A stretch of DNA of 64,000 bases from Deltaproteobacteria bacterium (lineage in GTDB: Bacteria; Myxococcota_A; UBA9160; SZUA-336), in the NCBI GenBank assembly GCA_031396695.1, contig JANNLG010000016.1, forward strand, positions 54,494 to 118,493, written 5' to 3'. Numbering within the stretch: the first letter of the stretch is position 1; each line of letters opens with the position of its first letter. Positions 20,585-29,709 of the stretch are shown here, piece after piece. The notes under the pieces are model-generated. The model saw only the letters and a program-made list of their open reading frames with translations, was not told the DNA's origin and made no database searches. Position numbers and translations under genes: made by a program.

Positions 20585-20660
20585 TCCCCGATAGCTCAGT
20601 TGGTAGAGCGGGTGGCTGTTAACCACTAGGTCGGCGGTTCAAGTCCGTCTCGGGGAGCCA
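20585..20660 (+). tRNA. tRNA-Asn (anticodon GTT)
   Basis: 76 nt with CCA: 7-bp acceptor stem TCCCCGA/TCGGGGA, D-arm GCTCAGTTGGTAGAGC, anticodon loop CTGTTAA (GTT), T-arm GGTTCAAGTCC. Closely resembles canonical bacterial tRNA-Asn. Confidence 0.85.
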
Positions 20661-22871: not shown

Positions 22872-23957
22872 ATGAAACTCGGCGCGTTCATGATGCCCTC
22901 GCACCCGCCCGAACGAAGCATCTACGACGGCTACCAGTGGGACCTGTCGCAGCTCGAGCTGTTCGACCGGCTCGGCTTCGACGAGGCCTGGATCGGGGAG
23001 CACTTCACCGCGCCTTGGGAGCCGAATCCGGCGCCCGACCTTCTGATCGCGCAGGCGCTCATGCGCACCAAGCGCATCAAGCTGGCGCCCGGCGCGCACC
23101 TGCTGCCCTACCACCACCCGGTCGAGCTCGCACACCGCGTGGCCTTCCTCGACCACATCTCGCAGGGTCGGACCATGCTCGGAGTCGGGATCAGCGCGCT
23201 GCCGAGCGATCTCGCGCTGTTCAACGTCGACGCAGCCACCGGACAGAACCGGCGCATGACGCTCGAGTCGCTCGACATCATGCTGCGGCTCTGGACCGAG
23301 GGGCCGATCAAGTTCGACGGCGAGTTCTGGTCGGTGCGCCCGCCCGAGACGCAGTTCGACTTCCTGTCCTTGCACCTGCGCCCGTTCCAGAAGCCGCATC
23401 CGCCGATCGGGATCGCCGGCCTGTCACCTGGGTCGGAGACGCTGAAGATCGCGGGCGAGCGCGGCTTCATGCCGCTGTCGATCTCCCTCAACCTCGCGCA
23501 CACCGCGTCGCACTGGGCCTCGATCGAGGCCGGCGCCGCGCGCGGCGGCCGCACACCGGACCGCCGCGATTGGCGACTCGTGAAGGAAGTCTACGTCGCG
23601 CGTACGGACGACCAGGCGCGCCGCTTCGCGCGCGAGGGCGCGATGGGCCGCTGCTGGCGCGAGTACCTGCTGCCGTTCTACCTGGGCAGTGGCATGCACT
23701 CGAGCTTCAAGGCCGATCCGAGCCACGCGGATTCGAGCCTGGACGTCGACTACCTGATCGAGCACAGCTGGTTCGTCGGCTCGGTGCAGACGGTCATCGA
23801 CAAGATCGGCGCGCACCAGCAGCGCACGGGTGGCTTCGGCGGACTGCTCGCGATGGTCTACGACATGAGCGGAGAAGCCGAGCGCTGGTCGGAGTCGCTC
23901 GAACTGCTCACGCGCGAAGTCATGCCGCACTTCCCCGAGGAGCGGAAGATCGGCTGA
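22872..23957 (+). CDS. LLM-class flavin-dependent oxidoreductase (luciferase-like monooxygenase)
   Basis: MKLGAFMMPSHPPERS... and GEHFTAPWE, typical of the LLM family. Confidence 0.75.
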   Translation: MKLGAFMMPSHPPERSIYDGYQWDLSQLELFDRLGFDEAWIGEHFTAPWEPNPAPDLLIAQALMRTKRIKLAPGAHLLPYHHPVELAHRVAFLDHISQGRTMLGVGISALPSDLALFNVDAATGQNRRMTLESLDIMLRLWTEGPIKFDGEFWSVRPPETQFDFLSLHLRPFQKPHPPIGIAGLSPGSETLKIAGERGFMPLSISLNLAHTASHWASIEAGAARGGRTPDRRDWRLVKEVYVARTDDQARRFAREGAMGRCWREYLLPFYLGSGMHSSFKADPSHADSSLDVDYLIEHSWFVGSVQTVIDKIGAHQQRTGGFGGLLAMVYDMSGEAERWSESLELLTREVMPHFPEERKIG

Positions 23958-23960
23958 CGC

Positions 23961-24635
23961 TCAGATGTGCTTGCGCACCTGAGTCGCGACGATGCCCGCG
24001 CCGACGATCATCAGCAGCACCGAGCTCGGCTCCGGGATCGGGTTGTTCGGGCCGGGGCCGGGCGTCGGGATGCGGTTCTCGTCGATGCGCAGCCCGGCGA
24101 GCGCGAAGTCGTTGTGCTCGCCCGAATCCGGCACGAGTCGGATCGAGGTGACCCAGCGGTTCACGCGCACGCTGAGCTCGCCGTCGCTGTTCGCGTAGTC
24201 GGAGTCGAAGTTGATGTCGAAGCCGTTGCCCATGATCGAGCCGGTCTCGTCGACGCGCAGGTAGTAGCGGCCCGAAGTGCTGAGCAGCGCGATGTCCACC
24301 GAGGTCAGGAACACGGCCTGCTCGAAGCGCACCGTGAGAACCTCCGGCGAGTCGATCTGGTACGTCGAGTCAGCGCTGCAGCCGCTCACCGAGCTCGGGC
24401 AGTTGATGCCCAGGCCGTTGCCGGAGCTCCAGGTCAGGTCGCTGCCGTTCGGGCTGGCGATGAACGTGACGTCGCCGAAGGCGGAGTTCCCGCTGTAGGT
24501 GACGGTCCCGTCGTAGCCGCTCGCGATGGTCGATCCGACGGAGCGCGTCAGATTGAGGCGCGCGGCACTCGCGGTGGAACCCAACAGGGTGGCAGAGGCA
24601 GCAAGGACGACAGCAGCGGACACCAGGAAGCGCAT
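23961..24635 (-). CDS. PEP-CTERM sorting-domain protein (secreted, exosortase substrate)
   Basis: N-terminal signal peptide MRFLVSAAVVLAASATLLGSTASA. C-terminus NNPIPEPSSVLLMIVGAGIVATQVRKHI is a PEP motif + TM helix + basic tail. Confidence 0.75.
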   Translation of the reverse strand: MRFLVSAAVVLAASATLLGSTASAARLNLTRSVGSTIASGYDGTVTYSGNSAFGDVTFIASPNGSDLTWSSGNGLGINCPSSVSGCSADSTYQIDSPEVLTVRFEQAVFLTSVDIALLSTSGRYYLRVDETGSIMGNGFDINFDSDYANSDGELSVRVNRWVTSIRLVPDSGEHNDFALAGLRIDENRIPTPGPGPNNPIPEPSSVLLMIVGAGIVATQVRKHI

Positions 24636-24681
24636 AGCGAAAGTACCCTCAGAGCTGGAAGTTTGGAGACCGATCCTCGAT

Positions 24682-24697
24682 GGTGATTTGTATCACC
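24682..24697. repeat. Inverted repeat GGTGA-N6-TCACC in AT-richer promoter region upstream of the PEP-CTERM gene
   Basis: Seen directly, in the 165-bp spacer between the selenoprotein stop and the PEP-CTERM gene start. Confidence 0.4.
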
Positions 24698-24800
24698 TTC
24701 CTAACTACCCGGTCAAGCTCACCTTTTTCGAACATTCAACGTTCGGAGTGGTATGCCAGCCACACACCGGAGGCAGCGAAGCGAAGCTTCGCGAGCTCCG

Positions 24801-25325
24801 CTACTTGGCGTCGGAAATTGCCTGTAGGACCGAGTCCACGATCGCCTCCGCCTTGGCGCGCATCTCGGCGTCGGTGGCGTCCTGGATCGGGTGAGGTACG
24901 AAGACGCAGCGAACGTCGGGCAGGCCGAGTGCGCGCGCCTGACCCGCGGCGGCGTCCTCGAAGACGCTCGAGGCCACGAAAACCGACGGCCGACCCTGGA
25001 GCTCGAACCAAACTGTGTCGTGCACACTGCACGTCGTACAGGAGCCTCAATCGGCCAGGGCTTCGATCACGAAGCCGCACTCCTCTGCGATCCGGCGCCG
25101 CAGTTCGAGCGGCGCGGGCTTGGTGAACGTGGGTTTGCGGTAGCGCCGGAACGCGACGTCGGGCAATCGCTCGCGCAGTAGCTGCTCGAGCCGGTCGAGC
25201 AGCACATCGCCGCGCGGCTTGATGATGTCGAGCAACGCGACCGTGCCCGTCACGGTGCCGTGTCGAGCCGCGAGCGCGCGGCGGATCGGCACGCGCTCAT
25301 CGGTGGGATCGAGAATCGTCGTCAC
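24801..25325 (-). CDS. UGSC-motif selenoprotein (in-frame TGA at 25049..25047 read as Sec)
   Basis: ORFs 25047..26003 (C-terminal ~92 codons) and 24801..25025 are in the same frame, separated only by TGA. Read-through gives ...IAEECGFVIEALAD-U-GSCTTCSVHDTVWFEL... (Sec-Gly-Ser-Cys then CxxC). Start GTG 25325 overlaps the upstream TGA (GTGA). A hairpin lies 7 nt downstream of the UGA. Confidence 0.6.
25013..25041 (-). promoter_or_regulatory. SECIS-like hairpin downstream of in-frame UGA
   Basis: mRNA sequence CUGU-ACGA-CGUG-CAGUGUG-CACG-AC-ACAG: 4+4 bp stem with internal loop and 7-nt apical loop, starting 7 nt 3' of UGA. Position is consistent with bacterial SECIS elements. Not energy-computed. 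Confidence 0.4.
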
Positions 25326-27949
25326 CCGGAGCTTCCCTCGTCTGTTTCGATCGCGCGGGTCGTCATTACAGAGCCGAGCGGTCCCGACACCCAGCCCTGG
25401 AAGTATGCGCCGAACTTCCCCGCCTCGCCGCCCGCGACGACCAGGGTGATGTCCCCGGGCGTGCGGAACTTCGGCACGCGCGCCTCGGCGCCGAGCTTCG
25501 CGAGCAGCTCGTCGGGCAGGCCCTCGGCGCAAACGTCGTCGCGCAGCAGCTCGCGCAGCGGACGCGACGTGACCTCCTGAATGCGCGCGCGGAGCTGATC
25601 CTTCGTGAAAGCGTCGCGTTTGAAGGTGTCGACGTGCTCGGGCGGCACGACCACCACGATCTCGCCGTGCAGGTAGTGCTTGGGGTGGTTCGCCGCCTGC
25701 AGCACGAGTCCGTAGCTGGTGGCGAGCCCGCGCGCATCGCGGGACAGCTGGTCGATGAAGCCGTTCGGCGCGCCGCCGGCGAAGGCGGTGACGGTGCTCT
25801 GCTCGCGCGCGAAGCCGCGCTCGACGTGCAGCGGCGCCCAGTCGCTGCGCTCTTCGTTCTCCGCGAAGCACATCGTGAACTTGCCCGGCTGACCGAGCGC
25901 CGCGCGGTCGACCTCGCCGGGTCGACCGCCACCCAGGTTCCGCACCACGAGCTGCACCGCCCGGCCGATCGTCGCGTTGGCGCGGTTGCCCTGCCCCAGG
26001 CAATTGATTCCGGAGTTCATGCCGATGCGCGCGCGGATCGGGCCGTTCACGATCAGCACCGGCGTGGGAAAGAACGTGGTCGCCAACACGCCGTGCAGGT
26101 TGAACTCGGGCGTGCAGATCGCCTCGACCGCTGCGATCACGACTGGAAGGTAGGCGGGCTTGCAGCCCGCCATGACCGCGTTGATCGCGATCTTCTCGAC
26201 CGTCGCGGGCGCGTAGTTCGGCGCGACCTCGGCCACCACGTCCTGCGCCGCGCGGCGTGTGCCCTCGAGCATGCGCATGACACGCTCGGGTGTCGGCGGA
26301 ACGACGGGTAGCCCGTCCGTCAGGCCCTGGTCGAACAGGAACTCGAACGGATCGTCGGCGTCGCCGAGCTCGATCCGGCGCGCGCGCATCGGGCTGCTCG
26401 AGGCACGCGCCTCGAACCGCGCGGCCACTTCGGGATCGTTCGTGCGCGAGCCGCAGCCGGGGCGAAGCTCAGGTAGACGCGACCAATCGCGCGCCGGAGC
26501 GGGCGTTCCGGCGAGCTGCGCCATGCGTTCGAATAGCGCGCGCCAATCCTCGCGCGCGAAGCCGACGTAGCGAGCGAGCTCCTCGCCCCCTGCGTCGAGC
26601 AGCACTGTGGTCGGAACTGCATCGATCTCCGCGCCGAACGAGACCGTGAGCGCGGAGTCGTCGAGAAACGGCGTGCGCAGGCCGTGCTTCTCGCGCAGCG
26701 CGCGCCCGCCGTCGTCATCCTGCGAGACGATCGCCACGTCGAGCACCGTGCCGAACGCTTCGTGCGCCGCCTCGACGATCGGAAGCGTGAGCTCGCAGGT
26801 GGGACAGCCCGCGTGGGCGAACACGAGCAGCCTCGCTCGGCCCGACGGCCACACGTGCGCGCGCGCATCGGTGTCGAGCAAGCGAAACGCGGGAACCGCC
26901 GCCACGCGCGCAGTATAGCCGGAGCGCCAGCGAGCCTGCGGGGCAGGCTTCGGAGCGCGCATCTTCTCGAGCTCGTGCTTGAAGCGCTCGCACGGGTCCT
27001 CGTCGTCGACGCGCGGCGTGAACCAGATCAGATCGAACTCCGTGCCGAACTCGGCCGCGCGTAGCGACGGGTCCTGCTTCGATTCGACGGAACCGGCGGG
27101 CACCTCGCTGAAGGCGAGCGTGAGCACTCGGCGCTGCGGCTCCCGCCGAGCCAAGTAGAGCGGCACGCCGCGGTCGCGCCGGACGTGCCCCGTGCCCGCG
27201 ATCAACACGCCACCGTCGGACTCGCCCGACCCGAGTAGCGCGTCGGCGAGCGTCGCGTCGCGCGCGCGTTGCACGGCGATCATCGCGTCGACCATCGCCT
27301 CGGGCGCCATCCCGCAGTGCGCCTCGCGCACTTCGTCCGCGAACGCCCGCCGCGCCTCGTCCGACGGGGGAGGCTCGAGCGCGAGCCGCGCGCGCTCGGC
27401 GGGCGGAAGCGCGTCGAGTGAGCGAAGCCGCATCTGCGCGAGCTGCGCGCGAGCGAGATCTCCGGGCACGATCGCCAACCGCGCTGCGAGCGCCGCCGCG
27501 AAGATCGGCCGGTACAGCGCGAAGTCGGGCCAGCCGCCGTGCGCCCAGTCGAGCGCCACGGCGAGCGCGTCGGGGTCGTCGGGATGCGCCGCGATCGCGG
27601 CCTCCAACACCGCTGCGCGATCGCGGGGAATCATCTCGAACACCACGGCCGGCCGCCGTCCCGCGCCCGCGAGCGATTCGACCAGCCACGCCTGCAGCCG
27701 GTGATGGTCCGGGTTGTCGTGCTTCTCGCCCAGCAGCACGAACGCGGAGCCGCGCGCGCGCGAGAGAACGTCGGCGGGCGTGACGAAGCGACGCTGTTCG
27801 GTGTCGAGGATGCGCCCGACCAACGCGTCCTCGCGACCCAGCGGTGCCTGCCAGGCGAGCCACGGCTCTGGCACCGCTCGCGGCGCGATCGCGGAATTCG
27901 CGCAGCCAACGACGAGGCTCGCGAAGAGCAGCGCGGTGGCGAGCCGCAT
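25322..27949 (-). CDS. 876-aa lipoprotein: ChaN-family domain + TlpA-like thioredoxin (CPTC) domain + C-terminal domain of unknown function
   Basis: Single stop-free frame from ATG 27949. Lipobox LVVGCANS. ChaN motifs VLLGEKHDNPDHH and VVFEMIPRD. Redoxin segment LLVFAHAGCPTCELTLPIVEA ... VPTTVLLDAGG. Then ~430 aa with Cys-containing conserved-looking blocks (AINAVMAGCKPAYLPVVIAAV, GINCLGQGNRANATIGRA). The upstream part of the 25322..28480 ORF is shadow. Confidence 0.6.
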   Translation of the reverse strand: MRLATALLFASLVVGCANSAIAPRAVPEPWLAWQAPLGREDALVGRILDTEQRRFVTPADVLSRARGSAFVLLGEKHDNPDHHRLQAWLVESLAGAGRRPAVVFEMIPRDRAAVLEAAIAAHPDDPDALAVALDWAHGGWPDFALYRPIFAAALAARLAIVPGDLARAQLAQMRLRSLDALPPAERARLALEPPPSDEARRAFADEVREAHCGMAPEAMVDAMIAVQRARDATLADALLGSGESDGGVLIAGTGHVRRDRGVPLYLARREPQRRVLTLAFSEVPAGSVESKQDPSLRAAEFGTEFDLIWFTPRVDDEDPCERFKHELEKMRAPKPAPQARWRSGYTARVAAVPAFRLLDTDARAHVWPSGRARLLVFAHAGCPTCELTLPIVEAAHEAFGTVLDVAIVSQDDDGGRALREKHGLRTPFLDDSALTVSFGAEIDAVPTTVLLDAGGEELARYVGFAREDWRALFERMAQLAGTPAPARDWSRLPELRPGCGSRTNDPEVAARFEARASSSPMRARRIELGDADDPFEFLFDQGLTDGLPVVPPTPERVMRMLEGTRRAAQDVVAEVAPNYAPATVEKIAINAVMAGCKPAYLPVVIAAVEAICTPEFNLHGVLATTFFPTPVLIVNGPIRARIGMNSGINCLGQGNRANATIGRAVQLVVRNLGGGRPGEVDRAALGQPGKFTMCFAENEERSDWAPLHVERGFAREQSTVTAFAGGAPNGFIDQLSRDARGLATSYGLVLQAANHPKHYLHGEIVVVVPPEHVDTFKRDAFTKDQLRARIQEVTSRPLRELLRDDVCAEGLPDELLAKLGAEARVPKFRTPGDITLVVAGGEAGKFGAYFQGWVSGPLGSVMTTRAIETDEGSSG

Positions 27950-28590
27950 CAGCCCGATTCCAGGTCGACGCCCGCGAGCGCGAGTCCGATCCAGACGATC
28001 CCGAGCAGCAGCGACGCGAGCGATGCCGCCACGAACACGCGCCGATAGGCGCGGCTCGCCTCCTGTTGCGGCGCGAGCACCCCGAGCAGCCAGGCGATCC
28101 CCATCATCGAGACGACGGTGCCTGCGCCGAAGCCGGCCAGATAGAGCGACGACTCCAGCCAGGAATGCATGCCGGCGGCGGGCAGCACCGCCAGCGTGGC
28201 GCCCGTTCCGACGAGCCCGTGCAGCGTGCCGATCGAGAGCGCGGCGGTCGCGTGAATGTGAACGTGCCCCCGGCCGGCCGCGTGGGAGAAGTGGTCCACT
28301 GCGCGGCGCTGGTGCCGCAACCCCCACAGTCCGACGGCCACGAGCACGAACCCGACCAGGTAGTCGCCCGCGTCCCCGAGCAGGTCCAGGTCGAGCCAAT
28401 CTGTCGCCGAGACGACCAGCAGAGCCACCGTGATGATGCCGAGCGCATGACCGATGCCCCAGCGCAGGCCGACGACCCACGCTTTCTCGCGCGCCTCGAC
28501 CGAGAACGGCGCGAGCGCGGCGACGTGATCGGGCCCGAGCACCACGTGCCCGAAGCCGGCTGCGAGACCGGTGAAGAAGACGAGGATCAC
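27949..28590 (-). CDS. HupE/UreJ-like (or NicO-like) metal transporter membrane protein
   Basis: Polytopic membrane protein with GFGHVVLGPDHVAALAP (H-x4-G-x-DH type motif) and HVHIH. GTG start overlaps the gamma-CA stop (GTGA); stop overlaps the downstream ATG. Confidence 0.5.
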   Translation of the reverse strand: MILVFFTGLAAGFGHVVLGPDHVAALAPFSVEAREKAWVVGLRWGIGHALGIITVALLVVSATDWLDLDLLGDAGDYLVGFVLVAVGLWGLRHQRRAVDHFSHAAGRGHVHIHATAALSIGTLHGLVGTGATLAVLPAAGMHSWLESSLYLAGFGAGTVVSMMGIAWLLGVLAPQQEASRAYRRVFVAASLASLLLGIVWIGLALAGVDLESG

Positions 28591-29123
28591 GGGGTCGGAC
28601 GCGCCAGCGCGGCCCGGTACTCGGCCGCGAGCTCCACGTAGTGGCGGTTCTGCTCGTCGAGCACCGCGCGTTCCTCGTCGGACACGGGCCGGACGAAGCG
28701 GGCGGGCCGGCCGAGCCAGAGCTCGCGCGAGCCGACGCGCTTTCCGGGCGAGAGCAGCGAGCCTGCGCCCAGCATGCCCTCGCTCGCGACCACCGCGCCG
28801 TCCAGGATCACCGAGCCCATACCCACGAAGGCGCGATCCTCGAGCGTGCAGGCGTGCACGATGCAGCCGTGGCCGATCGTGACCTCTACACCGATCAGCG
28901 TCGGCAGCCCCTCGCGCGAGACGTGGATGATCGAGCCGTCCTGGAAGTTCGTGCGCGCGCCGATCCGCACCTGCTGCACGTCCCCGCGCACCACGCAGCC
29001 GAACCACACGCTCGCCTGTGCGCCGAGCTCGACGTCACCGATCAGCGTCGCCCCCGGAGCCACGAACGCATCGGGCGCGAGACGCGGCAGGCATCCGCGG
29101 TAGGGCAGCAACCGGGCTTCCAA
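28587..29123 (-). CDS. Gamma carbonic anhydrase family protein (hexapeptide-repeat, YrdA/PaaY-like)
   Basis: Left-handed beta-helix hexapeptide repeats (IGDVELGAQASVWFGCVVRGDVQQVRIGARTNFQDGSIIH) with the His ligand pattern. Confidence 0.8.
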   Translation of the reverse strand: MEARLLPYRGCLPRLAPDAFVAPGATLIGDVELGAQASVWFGCVVRGDVQQVRIGARTNFQDGSIIHVSREGLPTLIGVEVTIGHGCIVHACTLEDRAFVGMGSVILDGAVVASEGMLGAGSLLSPGKRVGSRELWLGRPARFVRPVSDEERAVLDEQNRHYVELAAEYRAALARPTP

Positions 29124-29235
29124 AGTGCGCGGATTCTACCGCCCGCGCGCAGGCTTAGAAGCTCGGGGGCGGCGCCGCGAACGGTCCCGGGATGAATCTT
29201 GACTTGTTTGTACAGTTTATTAGGCTGCGGGCTCG
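29124..29235. promoter_or_regulatory. Divergent promoter region between the gamma-CA/selenoprotein operon and rrf2-suf operon
   Basis: 112-bp spacer with the only AT-rich tract locally (CTTGACTTGTTTGTACAGTTTATTAGGCT), containing a TTGACT -35-like hexamer and partial dyad symmetry. Likely the Rrf2 operator and promoters. Confidence 0.4.
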
Positions 29236-29709
29236 ATGCAGCTTCTCGCGCAAGAAGAGTATGGGTTGCGCTGCCTGATCCAGGTGGCCCGGCAGCGAGG
29301 CCCTGACCCGCTCACGATCCCCGAGATCGCCGAGCGCGAGGGGATTTCGCCCGAATACGCCGCCAAGCTGATGCGCGCGCTGCGTCAGACCGAGTTCGTG
29401 CTCAGCACGCGCGGCGCCGGGGGTGGCTATCGGCTCGCGCGCCCGGCCGGCGAGATCACCGCCTGGCAGGTGATCCAGGCGCTGGGCGGCTCGCTCTTTC
29501 CGGCCGAGTTCTGCGAGACGCATCCCGGCCAGCTGCGCGACTGCGTCCACTCGACCGGCTGCTCGCTGCGCGGACTCTGGAGCTCGGTCGAGAGCGCGAT
29601 CCGCAACGTGCTCGAGGGCGTGACGCTCGCCGACCTCGCACGCGACGACCGGATCCTGTTCGGGATCGACGGGCCGCCGCTCGAGCCCAAAGCGCAGGCG
29701 CCGCGATGA
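29236..29709 (+). CDS. Rrf2 family transcriptional regulator (IscR/SufR-like)
   Basis: N-terminal wHTH ([24 protein letters not shown]) and C-terminal Cys cluster (C..C..C: [18 protein letters not shown]) for Fe-S sensing. Confidence 0.8.

What the first reader, a model, noticed from the sequence alone, without database searches (positions are those of the whole stretch)
24801..29123. Translationally coupled operon: gamma-CA -> HupE/UreJ-like permease -> ChaN-thioredoxin-X lipoprotein -> UGSC selenoprotein (candidate undescribed metal/redox system)
Four minus-strand genes are chained by 4-nt or 1-nt start/stop overlaps (GTGA at 28587-28590, TGATG at 27947-27951, GTGA at 25322-25325), which implies tight co-expression.
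- The genes are a gamma-class carbonic anhydrase/hexapeptide protein, a HupE/UreJ- or NicO-like metal permease (H..G.DH motif), and an 876-aa lipoprotein with a ChaN-type (haem/iron-uptake-associated) domain fused to a CPTC thioredoxin-like domain and an unknown ~430-aa domain.
- The last gene is the Sec-containing UGSC protein, also carrying a CxxC.
- I am not aware of a characterised system that couples a ChaN/HupE metal-uptake module to a thioredoxin/selenoprotein redox pair.
- A PEP-CTERM protein follows, and the operon is divergent from the Rrf2-suf Fe-S operon, which suggests a link to metal-cofactor or sulfur/selenium trafficking.
Basis: inference. Interest (0 to 1): 0.8.

Follow-up and report, generated by a model that had tools for sequence, protein, structure and literature searches.

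The report
Selenoprotein UGSC and its conserved partner
The four "coupled" genes are really two unrelated units placed side by side. The interesting unit is a widespread gene pair: a thioredoxin-like protein carrying a large domain with no solved relative, followed by the selenocysteine protein UGSC, whose function has been unknown since 2007.

Summary
The start/stop overlaps and the in-frame TGA are real. The gamma-CA-like, ChaN, thioredoxin-like and UGSC assignments hold up in HMM or fold searches. Two parts of the observation fail.

- The "HupE/UreJ permease" matches no HupE or NicO model. It is a Cys-free, His-rich six-helix permease that scores marginally as DsbD_2.
- The 875-aa "ChaN-Trx-X lipoprotein" exists only in this window. 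Five related contigs have a stop codon (TAG or TGA) 15-27 nt before the GTG start of a separate 526-527-aa Trx-X protein. The window has TGG at that position.

The proposed metal-uptake/redox coupling is not conserved. Permease and ChaN are absent from 80 species loci and 120 metagenome contigs that carry Trx-X and/or UGSC. Some relatives have gCA, permease and ChaN without Trx-X/UGSC.

What is conserved is X plus UGSC:
- UGSC lies within 150 nt downstream of Trx-X in 66 of 80 species.
- X lies directly upstream of UGSC in 90 of 100 informative contigs.
- X and UGSC are fused, in both orders, in 25 of 150 family representatives.
- A ferredoxin-thioredoxin-reductase-like domain replaces Trx in one lineage.

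X models confidently (pLDDT 93) but has no Pfam, NCBIfam or PDB relative. The most likely function is a cytoplasmic thiol/selenol reductase relay with an unknown substrate.

The parts
28587..29123 (-). Gamma-carbonic-anhydrase-like hexapeptide protein (178 aa, TTG start). Part of unit A, not of the conserved selenoprotein module.
   Evidence: Scores 47.9 bits on Hexapep. Scores 174.8 bits on NF050158, below its cutoff of 250, with CaiE and PaaY as the next best models. H67, H85 and H90 have the spacing expected of gamma-CA metal ligands; this rests on reading the sequence plus prior knowledge. The gene is syntenic in L001, L086, L088 and L217-219.
27949..28590 (-). His-rich six-helix permease with no cysteine (213 aa, GTG start overlapping the gCA stop). 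Likely a metal-ion transporter. Part of unit A.
   Evidence: Marginal DsbD_2 hit at 26.4 bits, cutoff 24.9. No HupE, NicO or TauE hit passes. H15, D21, H22, H48, H111, H113 and H124 are at least 97% conserved across 117 homologues, and 63 of the 117 contain no Cys.
26927..27949 (-). ChaN-family (Tiki/TraB superfamily) lipoprotein with lipobox LVVGC. In relatives this is a separate gene of 339-342 aa. Part of unit A.
   Evidence: PF04187, E 5e-45. Weak match to PDB 2g5g, deposited as 'putative lipoprotein' and identified as C. jejuni ChaN only from prior knowledge. Lipobox read. Annotated as a separate gene in L001, L002 and L217-219.
26927..26929 (-). TGG codon at the position where relatives carry the ChaN stop codon. 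This single difference creates the window-specific 875-aa read-through ORF.
   Evidence: Junction alignment: L001 and L002 have TAG at this position, while L217, L218 and L219 have TGA nearby. Only the window lacks a stop.
26912..26917 (-). TATACT motif 6 nt upstream of the Trx-X GTG, conserved in all six related sequences. Possible internal -10 element (inference only).
   Evidence: The consensus promoter scan did not report it.
25322..26905 (-). Trx-X protein (527 aa from the internal GTG): a TlpA/ResA-like thioredoxin domain, a flexible Cys arm, and the X domain. Core of unit B.
   Evidence: AF2 model of the full protein has pLDDT 86.
26510..26905 (-). Thioredoxin-like domain. The active-site CPTC lies at 26795-26806.
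26447..26464 (-). RPGCGS motif in a low-confidence, probably flexible linker between Trx and X. Candidate shuttle cysteine (C151).
   Evidence: C151 is invariant in A2 and A3. PGCGS is present in 117 of 120 close homologues but in only about half of the more distant Trx-X proteins. pLDDT is 57-67 in this stretch.
25346..26368 (-). X domain core (about 340 aa). No Pfam, NCBIfam or PDB relative. Carries conserved C248 (AGC), C346, a GxGxRAN motif, GRA, and E349/E351.
24801..25325 (-). UGSC family selenoprotein (174 aa) with motif AD-U-GSC-TT-C-S. Its GTG start overlaps the Trx-X stop. Core of unit B.
   Evidence: Scores 154.9 bits on PF24696 and 157.6 bits on NF041046, cutoff 125. Found within 150 nt downstream of Trx-X in 66 of 80 species.
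25047..25049 (-). In-frame UGA that encodes selenocysteine.
   Evidence: The aligned codon is TGA in 74 of 75 homologous genes and TAG in one. Database gene calls are almost all fragments of about 95 aa that end at this codon, and Cys forms are rare.
25019..25033 (-). SECIS-like hairpin CGUGCA-GUG-UGCACG, starting 13 nt after the UGA.
   Evidence: Five core pairs are 100% paired in 70 distinct sequences. One pair varies G-C to G-U to A-U, and another shows a single C-G to U-A change. The loop is always GUN. It appears in the MFE structure, but the energy z-score is not significant.

Best explanation
The minus-strand gene chain is a mosaic of two separable units.

Unit A consists of a gamma-CA-like protein, a His-rich permease with no Cys, and a ChaN-family lipoprotein. 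It is a lineage-specific envelope or metal-related set that sits beside Rrf2-suf in this Myxococcota-like clade.

Unit B consists of Trx-X plus UGSC. It is a widely distributed two-gene cassette that has been inserted downstream of unit A.

How unit B is likely to work (inferred):
- It encodes a cytoplasmic thiol/selenol redox relay.
- The TlpA-like thioredoxin domain (CPTC) delivers reducing equivalents. In another lineage a ferredoxin-thioredoxin-reductase-like domain takes this role.
- In this subfamily the equivalents probably pass through a flexible Cys arm (RPGCGS).
- They reach the complex formed by the X domain and UGSC.
- X, a large domain with no solved relative, binds the substrate. 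Its conserved residues are two Cys plus Arg, Asn and Glu.
- The Sec-x-x-Cys centre of UGSC carries out the reductive chemistry and is recycled as a selenenylsulfide.

What is shown directly:
- UGA is decoded as Sec, directed by a hairpin 13 nt downstream.
- The 875-aa ChaN-Trx-X ORF results from a TAG-to-TGG difference specific to this window.

Further inference: functional Trx-X is most likely still made from its own GTG.

Shown overall: the modular structure, the X-UGSC linkage, Sec decoding, and the lack of any known relative of X. Inferred: the direction of electron flow, the catalytic role of X, and reductase chemistry. The substrate is unknown.
For: Separability of the two units:
- Relatives L086, L088 and L092 have Rrf2-suf, gCA, permease and ChaN but no Trx-X/UGSC.
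- 80 species loci and 120 metagenome contigs with Trx-X/UGSC contain no permease or ChaN.

Linkage of X and UGSC:
- UGSC is present in 71 of 80 species loci and lies within 150 nt downstream on the same strand in 66.
- In the UGSC-centred census, X is directly upstream in 90 of 100 informative contigs and further upstream in 3 more.
- Among 150 X-family representatives, 20 are UGSC-X fusions and 5 are X-UGSC fusions.
- The FeThRed_B-X protein P0148 has a Sec-UGSC gene immediately upstream.
- No third gene is universally conserved.

Redox character:
- The CPTC motif and Cys151, Cys248 and Cys346 are conserved.
- The motif U-x-x-C is invariant.

Sec decoding: 74 of 75 aligned codons are TGA, and the hairpin pairs are conserved with some variation that preserves pairing.

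Cytoplasmic location: homologues have no signal peptide.

Stop loss.

No known relative of X.
Against: - No biochemical or expression data exist. The electron path and the catalytic role of X are inferred only from domain content and fusions.
- The five-gene arrangement is conserved in five related contigs with tight spacing, so co-transcription of units A and B in this clade is likely.
- In L087 a 49%-identical permease sits directly upstream of Trx-X-UGSC. A clade-specific functional link therefore cannot be excluded.
- About 9 of 80 Trx-X loci lack UGSC within the fetched flank, although 3 of these have 1.2 kb or less of downstream sequence.
- Many X proteins have no fused Trx domain.
- If the window's TGG is real and no internal initiation occurs, Trx-X would be exported as part of a lipoprotein and separated from UGSC.
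- The SECIS hairpin lies in strongly conserved codons, and its folding energy is not exceptional.
Confidence: 0.6

Rival explanations
1. One reading: all four or five genes form one integrated system in which ChaN/permease-mediated metal or haem uptake is functionally coupled to the Trx/selenoprotein redox pair.
For: - Start/stop overlaps or spacers of 24 nt or less link all the genes.
- The same order is found in five related contigs.
- L087 has a homologous permease immediately upstream of Trx-X-UGSC.
- The location next to Rrf2-suf recurs.
Against: - No permease or ChaN hit occurs in any of 80 species loci or 120 metagenome contigs that carry the X-UGSC pair.
- Relatives have unit A without unit B.
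- An OmpA gene is inserted within unit A in L217.
- UGSC and stand-alone Trx-X lack export signals, whereas ChaN is a lipoprotein, so the proteins would sit in different compartments.
- The HupE/UreJ assignment is not supported.
Confidence: 0.12
2. The 875-aa ORF is a genuine new fusion: an exported ChaN-Trx-X lipoprotein that acts in the periplasm, which is where TlpA/ResA-type thioredoxins normally work.
For: - The ORF is uninterrupted in the window.
- The Trx domain is structurally closest to extracytoplasmic TlpA, ResA and DsbE proteins.
Against: - All five related contigs have a stop codon there.
- The 120 best homologues start at the internal position with no signal peptide.
- The near-obligate partner UGSC has no signal peptide and is fused directly to X in many lineages.
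- A single A-to-G difference, or a base-calling error, would be enough to produce the fusion.
Confidence: 0.1
3. X-UGSC is not a substrate reductase. Instead it is a carrier or chaperone pair, for example for trafficking of selenium, sulfur or metal, or a peroxide/repair antioxidant.
For: - Cys/Sec-rich motifs could bind Se, S or metals.
- selA-selB lie directly downstream of UGSC in several Burkholderiales and Marinobacter loci.
- Reviews classify most such selenoproteins loosely as redox or antioxidant proteins (PMC13188914).
Against: - The very high conservation of a 340-aa domain (62-90% identity across phyla), together with conserved Arg, Asn and Glu residues, looks more like an enzyme active site than a carrier.
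- Recurrent fusion to dedicated disulfide-reductase modules (Trx-like or FTR-like) implies catalytic turnover.
- There is no consistent association with selD, suf or isc genes outside this clade.
Confidence: 0.15
4. The in-frame TGA is a true stop or a pseudogene lesion, so the two UGSC halves are separate or dead ORFs.
For: Gene callers split the gene into products of 92 and 74 aa.
Against: - TGA occupies the same codon in 74 of 75 genes across many phyla, and both halves are conserved in frame.
- A conserved hairpin follows it.
- The full-length sequence matches the curated (seleno)protein model NF041046.
Confidence: 0.02

Closest known systems
UGSC-containing selenoprotein family (NCBIfam NF041046, Pfam PF24696; Zhang & Gladyshev 2007/2008)
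   Same: The last gene is a full-length member with Sec in the UGSC motif and a SECIS-like hairpin. [quoted passage not shown] Sec forms greatly outnumber Cys forms there (255 against 21; PMC2398784), which matches my counts.
   Different: The family's function is still listed as unknown in 2022 and 2026 reviews. The 2008 paper mentions a fusion to an 'Unknown_1' domain. I could not confirm that this is X, because the figure is stored as an image. The near-obligate pairing with X and the alternative Trx or FTR modules are not described in the eight library papers that mention UGSC.
Thioredoxin-dependent selenoenzyme reductases (glycine/sarcosine/betaine reductase GrdA/B/E, D-proline reductase PrdA/B)
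   Same: The logic is similar: a substrate-binding protein, a small or partner selenoprotein with a U-x-x-C or C-x-x-U redox centre, and a thioredoxin-type reductant encoded alongside. This comparison rests on established knowledge of those systems.
   Different: UGSC gives no HMM hit to GRDB (PF07355) or to any family other than UGSC, even at E<=10. The X profile matches no PDB sequence. The hosts are mostly aerobic aquatic and soil lineages rather than Stickland fermenters. This is an analogy, not membership.
TlpA/ResA/DsbE (CcmG) thiol-disulfide oxidoreductases
   Different: Those proteins are extracytoplasmic, membrane-anchored, single-domain reductants for cytochrome maturation. This one has no signal peptide or anchor in any homologue and is fused to a 390-aa domain. 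The public name describes only a quarter of the protein.
Ferredoxin:thioredoxin reductase catalytic subunit (FTR-B, PF02943)
   Same: In one lineage an FTR-B-like domain with the CPC...CPC...CHC motif replaces the Trx domain in front of X, and Sec-UGSC is adjacent. This supports the idea that X-UGSC receives electrons from a disulfide-reducing module.
   Different: The domain is not present in this window. It is relevant only as comparative evidence.
ChaN (Campylobacter jejuni Cj0177, PDB 2g5g) / Tiki-TraB-erythromycin-esterase superfamily
   Same: The first 340 aa of the big ORF match PF04187 strongly (E 5e-45) and begin with a lipoprotein signal, as ChaN does.
   Different: Identity to the solved ChaN is low (phmmer E 1.4e-5). 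The haem-binding residues were not examined. The partner here is a His-rich permease rather than a TonB-dependent receptor.
HupE/UreJ and NiCoT (NicO) Ni/Co permeases; DsbD_2/CcdA
   Same: The topology is a small six-helix permease. It has an H-x3-G-x-DH motif in helix 1 and further invariant His residues, which resembles the Ni/Co permease signatures known from the literature.
   Different: There is no HMM match to HupE_UreJ or NicO. The DsbD_2 match is marginal, and the two Cys residues that are essential in CcdA/DsbD are absent.

Membership tests
UGSC family (seleno)protein (NF041046 / PF24696) | Full-length HMM match above the curated cutoff | tested here: met
   NF041046 scores 157.6 bits against a cutoff of 125. 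PF24696 scores 154.9 bits against a cutoff of 25.
UGSC family (seleno)protein (NF041046 / PF24696) | Sec (UGA) or Cys at the first position of the UGSC motif, followed by Cys at +3 | tested here: met
   The motif reads AD-TGA-GSC-TTC, with TGA at 25047-25049. The aligned codon is TGA in 74 of 75 homologues.
Bacterial selenoprotein gene (SECIS-dependent recoding) | Stem-loop shortly downstream of the UGA with G/U in the apical loop | tested here: met
   A 6-bp hairpin lies 13 nt after the UGA with loop GUG. Its pairs are conserved, with G-C/G-U/A-U variation at one pair and a single C-G to U-A change at another. The energy z-score alone is not significant.
Bacterial selenoprotein gene (SECIS-dependent recoding) | The host encodes selA, selB, selD and tRNA-Sec | tested here: inconclusive
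   None of these was found in the 64-kb window. The rest of the genome is not available. selA-selB do flank UGSC in other lineages.
ChaN / Cofac_haem_bdg (PF04187) | HMM match above the gathering score | tested here: met
   Scores 151.9-154.5 bits against a cutoff of 27.7.
ChaN / Cofac_haem_bdg (PF04187) | Haem-binding function (cofacial haem ligands) | not tested
   Only a weak sequence match to 2g5g was obtained. The ligand residues were not aligned.
HupE/UreJ (PF04955) or NicO/NiCoT (PF03824) metal permease | HMM match to the family model | tested here: not met
   No hit at E<=10 for the window protein or for four homologues.
HupE/UreJ (PF04955) or NicO/NiCoT (PF03824) metal permease | His/Asp signature in helix 1 (HxxxxDH-type) | tested here: inconclusive
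   GH15-x3-GP-D21-H22 is conserved in at least 97% of 117 homologues. This resembles the signature, but the match was judged from memory rather than against a curated motif.
DsbD_2 / CcdA thiol-disulfide electron transporter | HMM match | tested here: met
   Scores 26.4 bits against a cutoff of 24.9, which is marginal.
DsbD_2 / CcdA thiol-disulfide electron transporter | Two conserved transmembrane cysteines | tested here: not met
   The window protein has no Cys, and 63 of 117 homologues have none.
Gamma-class carbonic anhydrase | Equivalog-level HMM score | tested here: not met
   NF050158 scores 174.8 bits, below its cutoff of 250. CaiE and PaaY models also score below their cutoffs. The protein belongs to the wider gamma-CA-like/hexapeptide family only.
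Gamma-class carbonic anhydrase | Three metal-binding histidines | tested here: inconclusive
   H67, H85 and H90 are present with the expected 18/5 spacing. This rests on reading the sequence and on prior knowledge of the family.
TlpA/ResA-type thioredoxin-fold oxidoreductase | Thioredoxin fold with a CxxC motif at the N-terminus of helix 1 | tested here: met
TlpA/ResA-type thioredoxin-fold oxidoreductase | Extracytoplasmic location (signal peptide or membrane anchor) | tested here: not met
   Homologues start MxxLPxF... with no hydrophobic leader. Only the window's read-through ORF would supply a signal peptide.
Glycine/proline reductase-type selenoenzyme | GrdB/PrdB-family selenoprotein (PF07355) | tested here: not met
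   UGSC hits only PF24696 at E<=10.

The most novel reading that the evidence does not exclude
X plus UGSC, fed by a fused Trx-like or FTR-like module, is an uncharacterised selenocysteine-dependent enzyme whose roughly 340-aa catalytic domain has no solved relative. It would catalyse a reductive reaction on an as-yet-unknown small metabolite. It is found in hundreds of mostly aerobic aquatic and soil species, spanning Chloroflexota, Acidimicrobiia, Pseudomonadales, Myxococcota, Binatia, Vicinamibacteria, Burkholderiales and others. [quoted passage not shown]
Probability: 0.45. Interest if true: 0.8.

Novelty: new variant of a known kind. Interest (0 to 1): 0.62.

Why it matters
UGSC was catalogued as a selenoprotein of unknown function in 2007. 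[quoted passage not shown]

This analysis shows three things:
- UGSC almost always comes with one specific partner domain, X, which is adjacent or fused in either order.
- X is a very large and very conserved family with no Pfam, NCBIfam or PDB relative.
- The pair is wired to interchangeable disulfide-reductase modules.

Together these turn "unknown redox protein" into a concrete, testable three-part enzyme hypothesis, with defined residues to mutate.

The analysis also corrects public annotation, which calls the whole protein a "TlpA family protein disulfide reductase". Finally, it shows that the proposed metal-uptake link is an accident of gene order in one clade.

Tried and rejected
1. Sec in the Trx motif. 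Several 481-aa homologues begin just after CPTC, which suggested a UGA in that motif. Reading the locus showed miscalled GTG starts with CPTC intact. Rejected.
2. UGSC has a thioredoxin-like fold, as suggested in PMC2398784. A profile-profile comparison of UGSC against the Trx domain gave probability 0.3%, and there were no PDB sequence hits. This is unsupported by sequence.
3. Identity of 'Unknown_1' in the 2008 paper. The figure panel is stored as an image and the dataset is truncated, and a motif search gave no relevant match: only a chance 'DGLPV' hit in an unrelated Prx-like read. Unresolved.
4. Fold search of the full Trx-X model. The Trx domain swamped the hit list, so X was remodelled on its own.
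5. The AFDB Foldseek library was not available.
6. Promoter and terminator scan of 23800-29400. It was uninformative, with no promoters and terminator-like sites at chance level.
7. Search for Sec machinery in the window. Only a generic GTPase match to SelB was found.
8. A third conserved neighbour of X-UGSC. The next most common families occur in 18 or fewer of 82 loci: acyl-CoA dehydrogenase-like, SDR, CoA-transferase III and an ABC ATPase. This is suggestive at most.
9. A [4Fe-4S] reading of U-x2-C-x2-C. The third Cys is replaced by Trp in fused Cys forms. Rejected.
10. Literature search on ChaN/PF04187. It returned nothing useful.

Full report
**1. What is in the sequence**

The region has about 70% G+C. 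On the minus strand it carries, in order:
- a 178-aa hexapeptide/gamma-CA-like gene (28587-29123);
- a 213-aa membrane protein (27949-28590);
- an uninterrupted 875-codon ORF (25322-27949);
- a 174-codon gene with an in-frame TGA (24801-25325);
- after a 165-nt gap, a 224-aa protein with a PEP-CTERM signal.

Rrf2 and sufBCD lie divergently upstream (Pfam labels from the syntenic relative). Such overlaps are routine in bacterial operons and do not on their own imply a shared function.

**2. Domain assignments**

Pfam and NCBIfam support the following:
- Hexapep/gamma-CA-like: NF050158 scores 174.8 bits, below its equivalog cutoff of 250.
- ChaN/Cofac_haem_bdg: E 3e-44.
- UGSC: PF24696 scores 154.9 bits and NF041046 scores 157.6 bits, cutoff 125.

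The permease is not HupE/UreJ or NicO by HMM, even at E<=10. It scores only marginally as DsbD_2 (26.4 against 24.9). It has no cysteine, so it cannot be a CcdA/DsbD-type thiol transporter. An alignment of 117 homologues shows H15, D21, H22, H48, H111, H113 and H124 conserved in at least 97% of sequences. A metal-ion permease is therefore a reasonable reading by motif, but membership of the named families is not established.

The C-terminal stretch of about 390 aa in the big ORF (called X here) has no Pfam hit at E<=10.

**3. The 'fusion lipoprotein' is specific to this window**

The best 120 are stand-alone proteins of about 521-527 aa made of Trx plus X. They start at the residue equivalent to V349 of the big ORF and have no signal peptide.

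Five related contigs (L001, L002, L217, L218, L219) show 84-90% identity in X and 86-88% across the neighbouring proteins of L001/L002. They keep the same gene order, but in each one ChaN is a separate gene of 339-342 aa. It ends in TAG or TGA 15-27 nt before the GTG start of Trx-X. The window has TGG (26927-26929) exactly where L001 and L002 have TAG, and the 21-nt spacer happens to be in frame.

The 875-aa ORF therefore reflects a single-base stop loss, or possibly a base-calling error. If the fusion were exported through the ChaN lipoprotein signal, Trx-X would be separated from UGSC, which has no signal. I infer that the functional Trx-X (25322-26905, 527 aa) is still initiated at its own GTG. 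A TATACT motif 6 nt upstream of that GTG is conserved in all six sequences. It may be an internal -10 element, but this is inference only.

**4.

*Census centred on Trx-X.* A scan of one genome per species found at least 597 species with a relative, and 80 loci were fetched. They come from Chloroflexota, Binatia, Pseudomonadales and other Gammaproteobacteria, Alphaproteobacteria, Vicinamibacteria, Acidimicrobiia, Myxococcota, Burkholderiales, Spirochaetaceae, Blastococcus and Marinobacter.
- UGSC is present in 71 of the 80 and lies within 150 nt downstream on the same strand in 66.
- Of the 9 without UGSC, 3 have 1.2 kb or less of downstream sequence.
- Permease and ChaN are present in 0 of 80.
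- A gCA homologue appears only about 3 kb upstream on the opposite strand in six Acidimicrobiales loci.

*Census centred on UGSC.* A scan of metagenome contigs with the conserved UGA/SECIS codon pattern returned 120 contigs.
- X is directly upstream on the same strand in 90, and further upstream in 3.
- In 20 there is less than 400 nt of upstream sequence.
- In 7 there is room but no X.
- Permease and ChaN are present in 0 of 120.

*Other neighbours.* Clustering all ORFs from the loci found no third universally conserved neighbour. The next families occur in 18 or fewer of 82 loci.

*Unit A without unit B.* Homologues of the permease in related lineages lie in Rrf2-suf / gCA-permease ... ChaN neighbourhoods that lack Trx-X/UGSC (L086, L088, L092). 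L217 has an OmpA gene inserted between permease and ChaN. One related contig, L087, has the permease directly upstream of Trx-X-UGSC with no ChaN between them and no gCA nearby.

*Conclusion.* The chain is a mosaic. Unit A (gCA, permease, ChaN) belongs to this clade's suf-adjacent backbone. Unit B (Trx-X, UGSC) is a separable cassette found across many phyla.

**5. X and UGSC are functionally linked**

An exhaustive HMMER search with X found 5353 representative clusters at 50% identity with E<=1e-3. I classified the 150 best with local HMMs and Pfam. The architectures were:

| Architecture | Count |
|---|---|
| X alone (including fragments) | 87 |
| Trx-X | 26 |
| UGSC-X fusion | 20 |
| X-UGSC fusion | 5 |
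| FeThRed_B-X | 1 |
| X-X (tandem or split hits) | 8 |
| Other multi-domain (Trx-Trx-X, Trx-X-X, X-X-X) | 3 |

- Several UGSC-X entries begin just after the UGA, which means the fusion contains Sec.
- The X-UGSC entries sampled (P0142, and P0452/P0467 from the UGSC search) end at the UGA.
- About five of the tandem entries are true 709-741-aa X-X proteins.
- The locus with the FTR-like fusion has a Sec-containing UGSC gene immediately upstream.

Fusion in both orders, near-obligate adjacency, and replacement of one disulfide-reductase module by another are strong comparative evidence. They indicate that X and UGSC act together and receive electrons from a dithiol/disulfide module.

**6. Selenocysteine decoding**

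The codon aligned with U is TGA in 74 of 75 neighbouring UGSC genes. It is TAG in one, the Blastococcus locus L063. The motif AD-U-GSC-T[TS]-C-[SC] is essentially invariant.

A hairpin, CGUGCA-GUN-UGCACG, starts 13 nt after the UGA.
- Five core pairs are paired in all 70 distinct sequences.
- One pair varies G-C to G-U to A-U.
- Another pair shows a single C-G to U-A change.
- The loop always begins GU.

The hairpin is part of the MFE fold, but its energy is not exceptional for this G+C content (z = 0.22), and the bases are also constrained by conserved codons. Database gene calls for UGSC are almost all fragments of about 95 aa that end at the UGA, and Cys forms are rare. This agrees with the 255 Sec against 21 Cys sequences reported for GOS (PMC2398784).

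**7. What X is**

I modelled X alone with a diverse 117-sequence alignment. The result is confident (pLDDT 93.1, pTM 0.90).
- Foldseek against the whole PDB finds nothing at E<=1e-3, with TM-scores of 0.23 or less.
- A family profile finds no PDB sequence at E<=1.

With the libraries available, X has no solved or curated relative. AFDB could not be searched.

Columns conserved across the diverse family include DGLP...PT, NAVxAGC (C248 in Trx-X numbering), GxGxRAN, GRA, NxGG, C346, E349, E351, W356 and GG. In the close subfamily a further invariant Cys (RPGC151GS) lies in a low-confidence, probably flexible linker between Trx and X.

**8. Mechanism**

*Shown:* a cytoplasmic Trx-fold CxxC domain, a conserved Cys-bearing X domain, and a U-x-x-C selenoprotein form one conserved unit, with an FTR-like alternative to Trx.

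*Inferred:* electrons pass from the Trx (or FTR-like) module, possibly through the C151 arm, to a selenenylsulfide or disulfide formed between or within UGSC and X during turnover. X supplies the substrate pocket, lined by conserved Arg, Asn and Glu, which suggests a small polar or anionic ligand.

The logic resembles thioredoxin-dependent selenoenzyme reductases such as glycine and proline reductase. There is no sequence relationship to them, and the hosts are mostly aerobes, so this is an analogy only.

Weak contextual hints point to acyl-CoA or organic-acid metabolism. CoA-transferase III lies immediately adjacent in seven diverse loci, and SDR, acyl-CoA dehydrogenase-like, enoyl-CoA hydratase and MaoC-like dehydratase genes also recur. 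These families are also common in such genomes. The substrate remains unknown.

**9. Comparison with the literature**

- UGSC-containing proteins were first listed as selenoproteins of unknown function in 2007 (PMC1976440).
- They were found to be a major GOS family, and a fusion to an uncharacterised 'Unknown_1' domain was noted in 2008 (PMC2398784).
- They are still described as uncharacterised in 2022 and 2026 reviews.
- Only eight papers in the library mention the family.
- Public annotation names Trx-X a 'TlpA family protein disulfide reductase', which describes only its first 130 residues.

**10. Verdict**

The window's instance is an ordinary member of the X-UGSC cassette. The cassette itself is a poorly understood, widespread, Sec-dependent system whose core domain has no known relative, and it deserves follow-up.

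Noticed in passing
window 26912-26917 (minus strand); L001, L002, L217-L219 at the equivalent position: A TATACT hexamer 6 nt upstream of the Trx-X GTG is conserved in all six related sequences, although the surrounding spacer varies. It could be a -10 element that gives a leaderless or very short-leader transcript for Trx-X-UGSC.
   Followed up: partly
L063 (Candidatus Blastococcus massiliensis AP3), codon aligned with the window's UGA: This UGSC homologue has TAG instead of TGA at the Sec position (GAT TAG GGC instead of GAT TGA GGC), while the rest of the gene and the hairpin are intact. It could be a sequencing error, a pseudogene or something unusual.
   Followed up: no
L075, L080, L082, L042, L049 (Burkholderiales, Betaproteobacteria, Marinobacter and a Candidatus Cybelea MAG): selA and/or selB homologues lie directly downstream of UGSC, giving the order Trx-X, UGSC, selA, selB. 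This suggests UGSC may be the main client of the Sec machinery in those genomes.
   Followed up: partly
L060, L066, L073 (Dehalococcoidia): A second X-domain paralogue without a Trx domain follows UGSC, giving the order Trx-X, UGSC, X'.
   Followed up: no
L214-L216 (protein P0148): A ferredoxin-thioredoxin-reductase catalytic-chain domain (PF02943, with its CPC...CPC...CHC motif) is fused to X in place of Trx. Sec-UGSC lies immediately upstream, and a histidine-phosphatase gene lies before that.
   Followed up: yes
P0136, P0154, P0179, P0184, P0185 (709-741 aa): These proteins carry tandem X-X duplications and lack both Trx and UGSC domains.
   Followed up: no
L003, L019, L027, L040, L053, L061, L072: A CoA-transferase family III gene lies immediately adjacent to the Trx-X/UGSC pair, often on the opposite strand, in taxonomically diverse loci. 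SDR and acyl-CoA dehydrogenase-like genes also recur. This may hint at the substrate or may just reflect genomic background.
   Followed up: partly
L044, L069, L070, L071, L076, L077 (Acidimicrobiales): A gamma-CA-like gene (34-40% identical to the window's) recurs about 3 kb upstream of Trx-X on the opposite strand. This is probably lineage-specific synteny.
   Followed up: no
L217, 1936-2748: An OmpA-domain gene is inserted between the permease and ChaN in one close relative, which breaks the tight coupling seen in the window.
   Followed up: no
L087, 5001-7759: A 49%-identical permease lies directly upstream of Trx-X (496 aa) and UGSC, with no ChaN between them and no gCA nearby, again close to Rrf2-suf. 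This is the only hint that the permease and the selenoprotein cassette might be linked within this broader lineage.
   Followed up: partly
window 27949-28590 and homologues P0271-P0390: The permease family has seven near-invariant His/Asp residues (H15, D21, H22, H48, H111, H113, H124) and a variable His-rich loop. Public names are inconsistent: TauE/SafE, DsbD-like, RcnA and NqrB.
   Followed up: partly
P0391, P0392 (full-length UGSC database entries): Two full-length entries show Gly or Trp at the Sec position (ADGGSC, ADWGSC). These may be true substitutions or gene calls made with a code that reads TGA as an amino acid.
   Followed up: no
window 20585-20660: tRNA-Asn (GTT) is the only RNA gene detected in the 64-kb window. 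No tRNA-Sec was found.
   Followed up: yes
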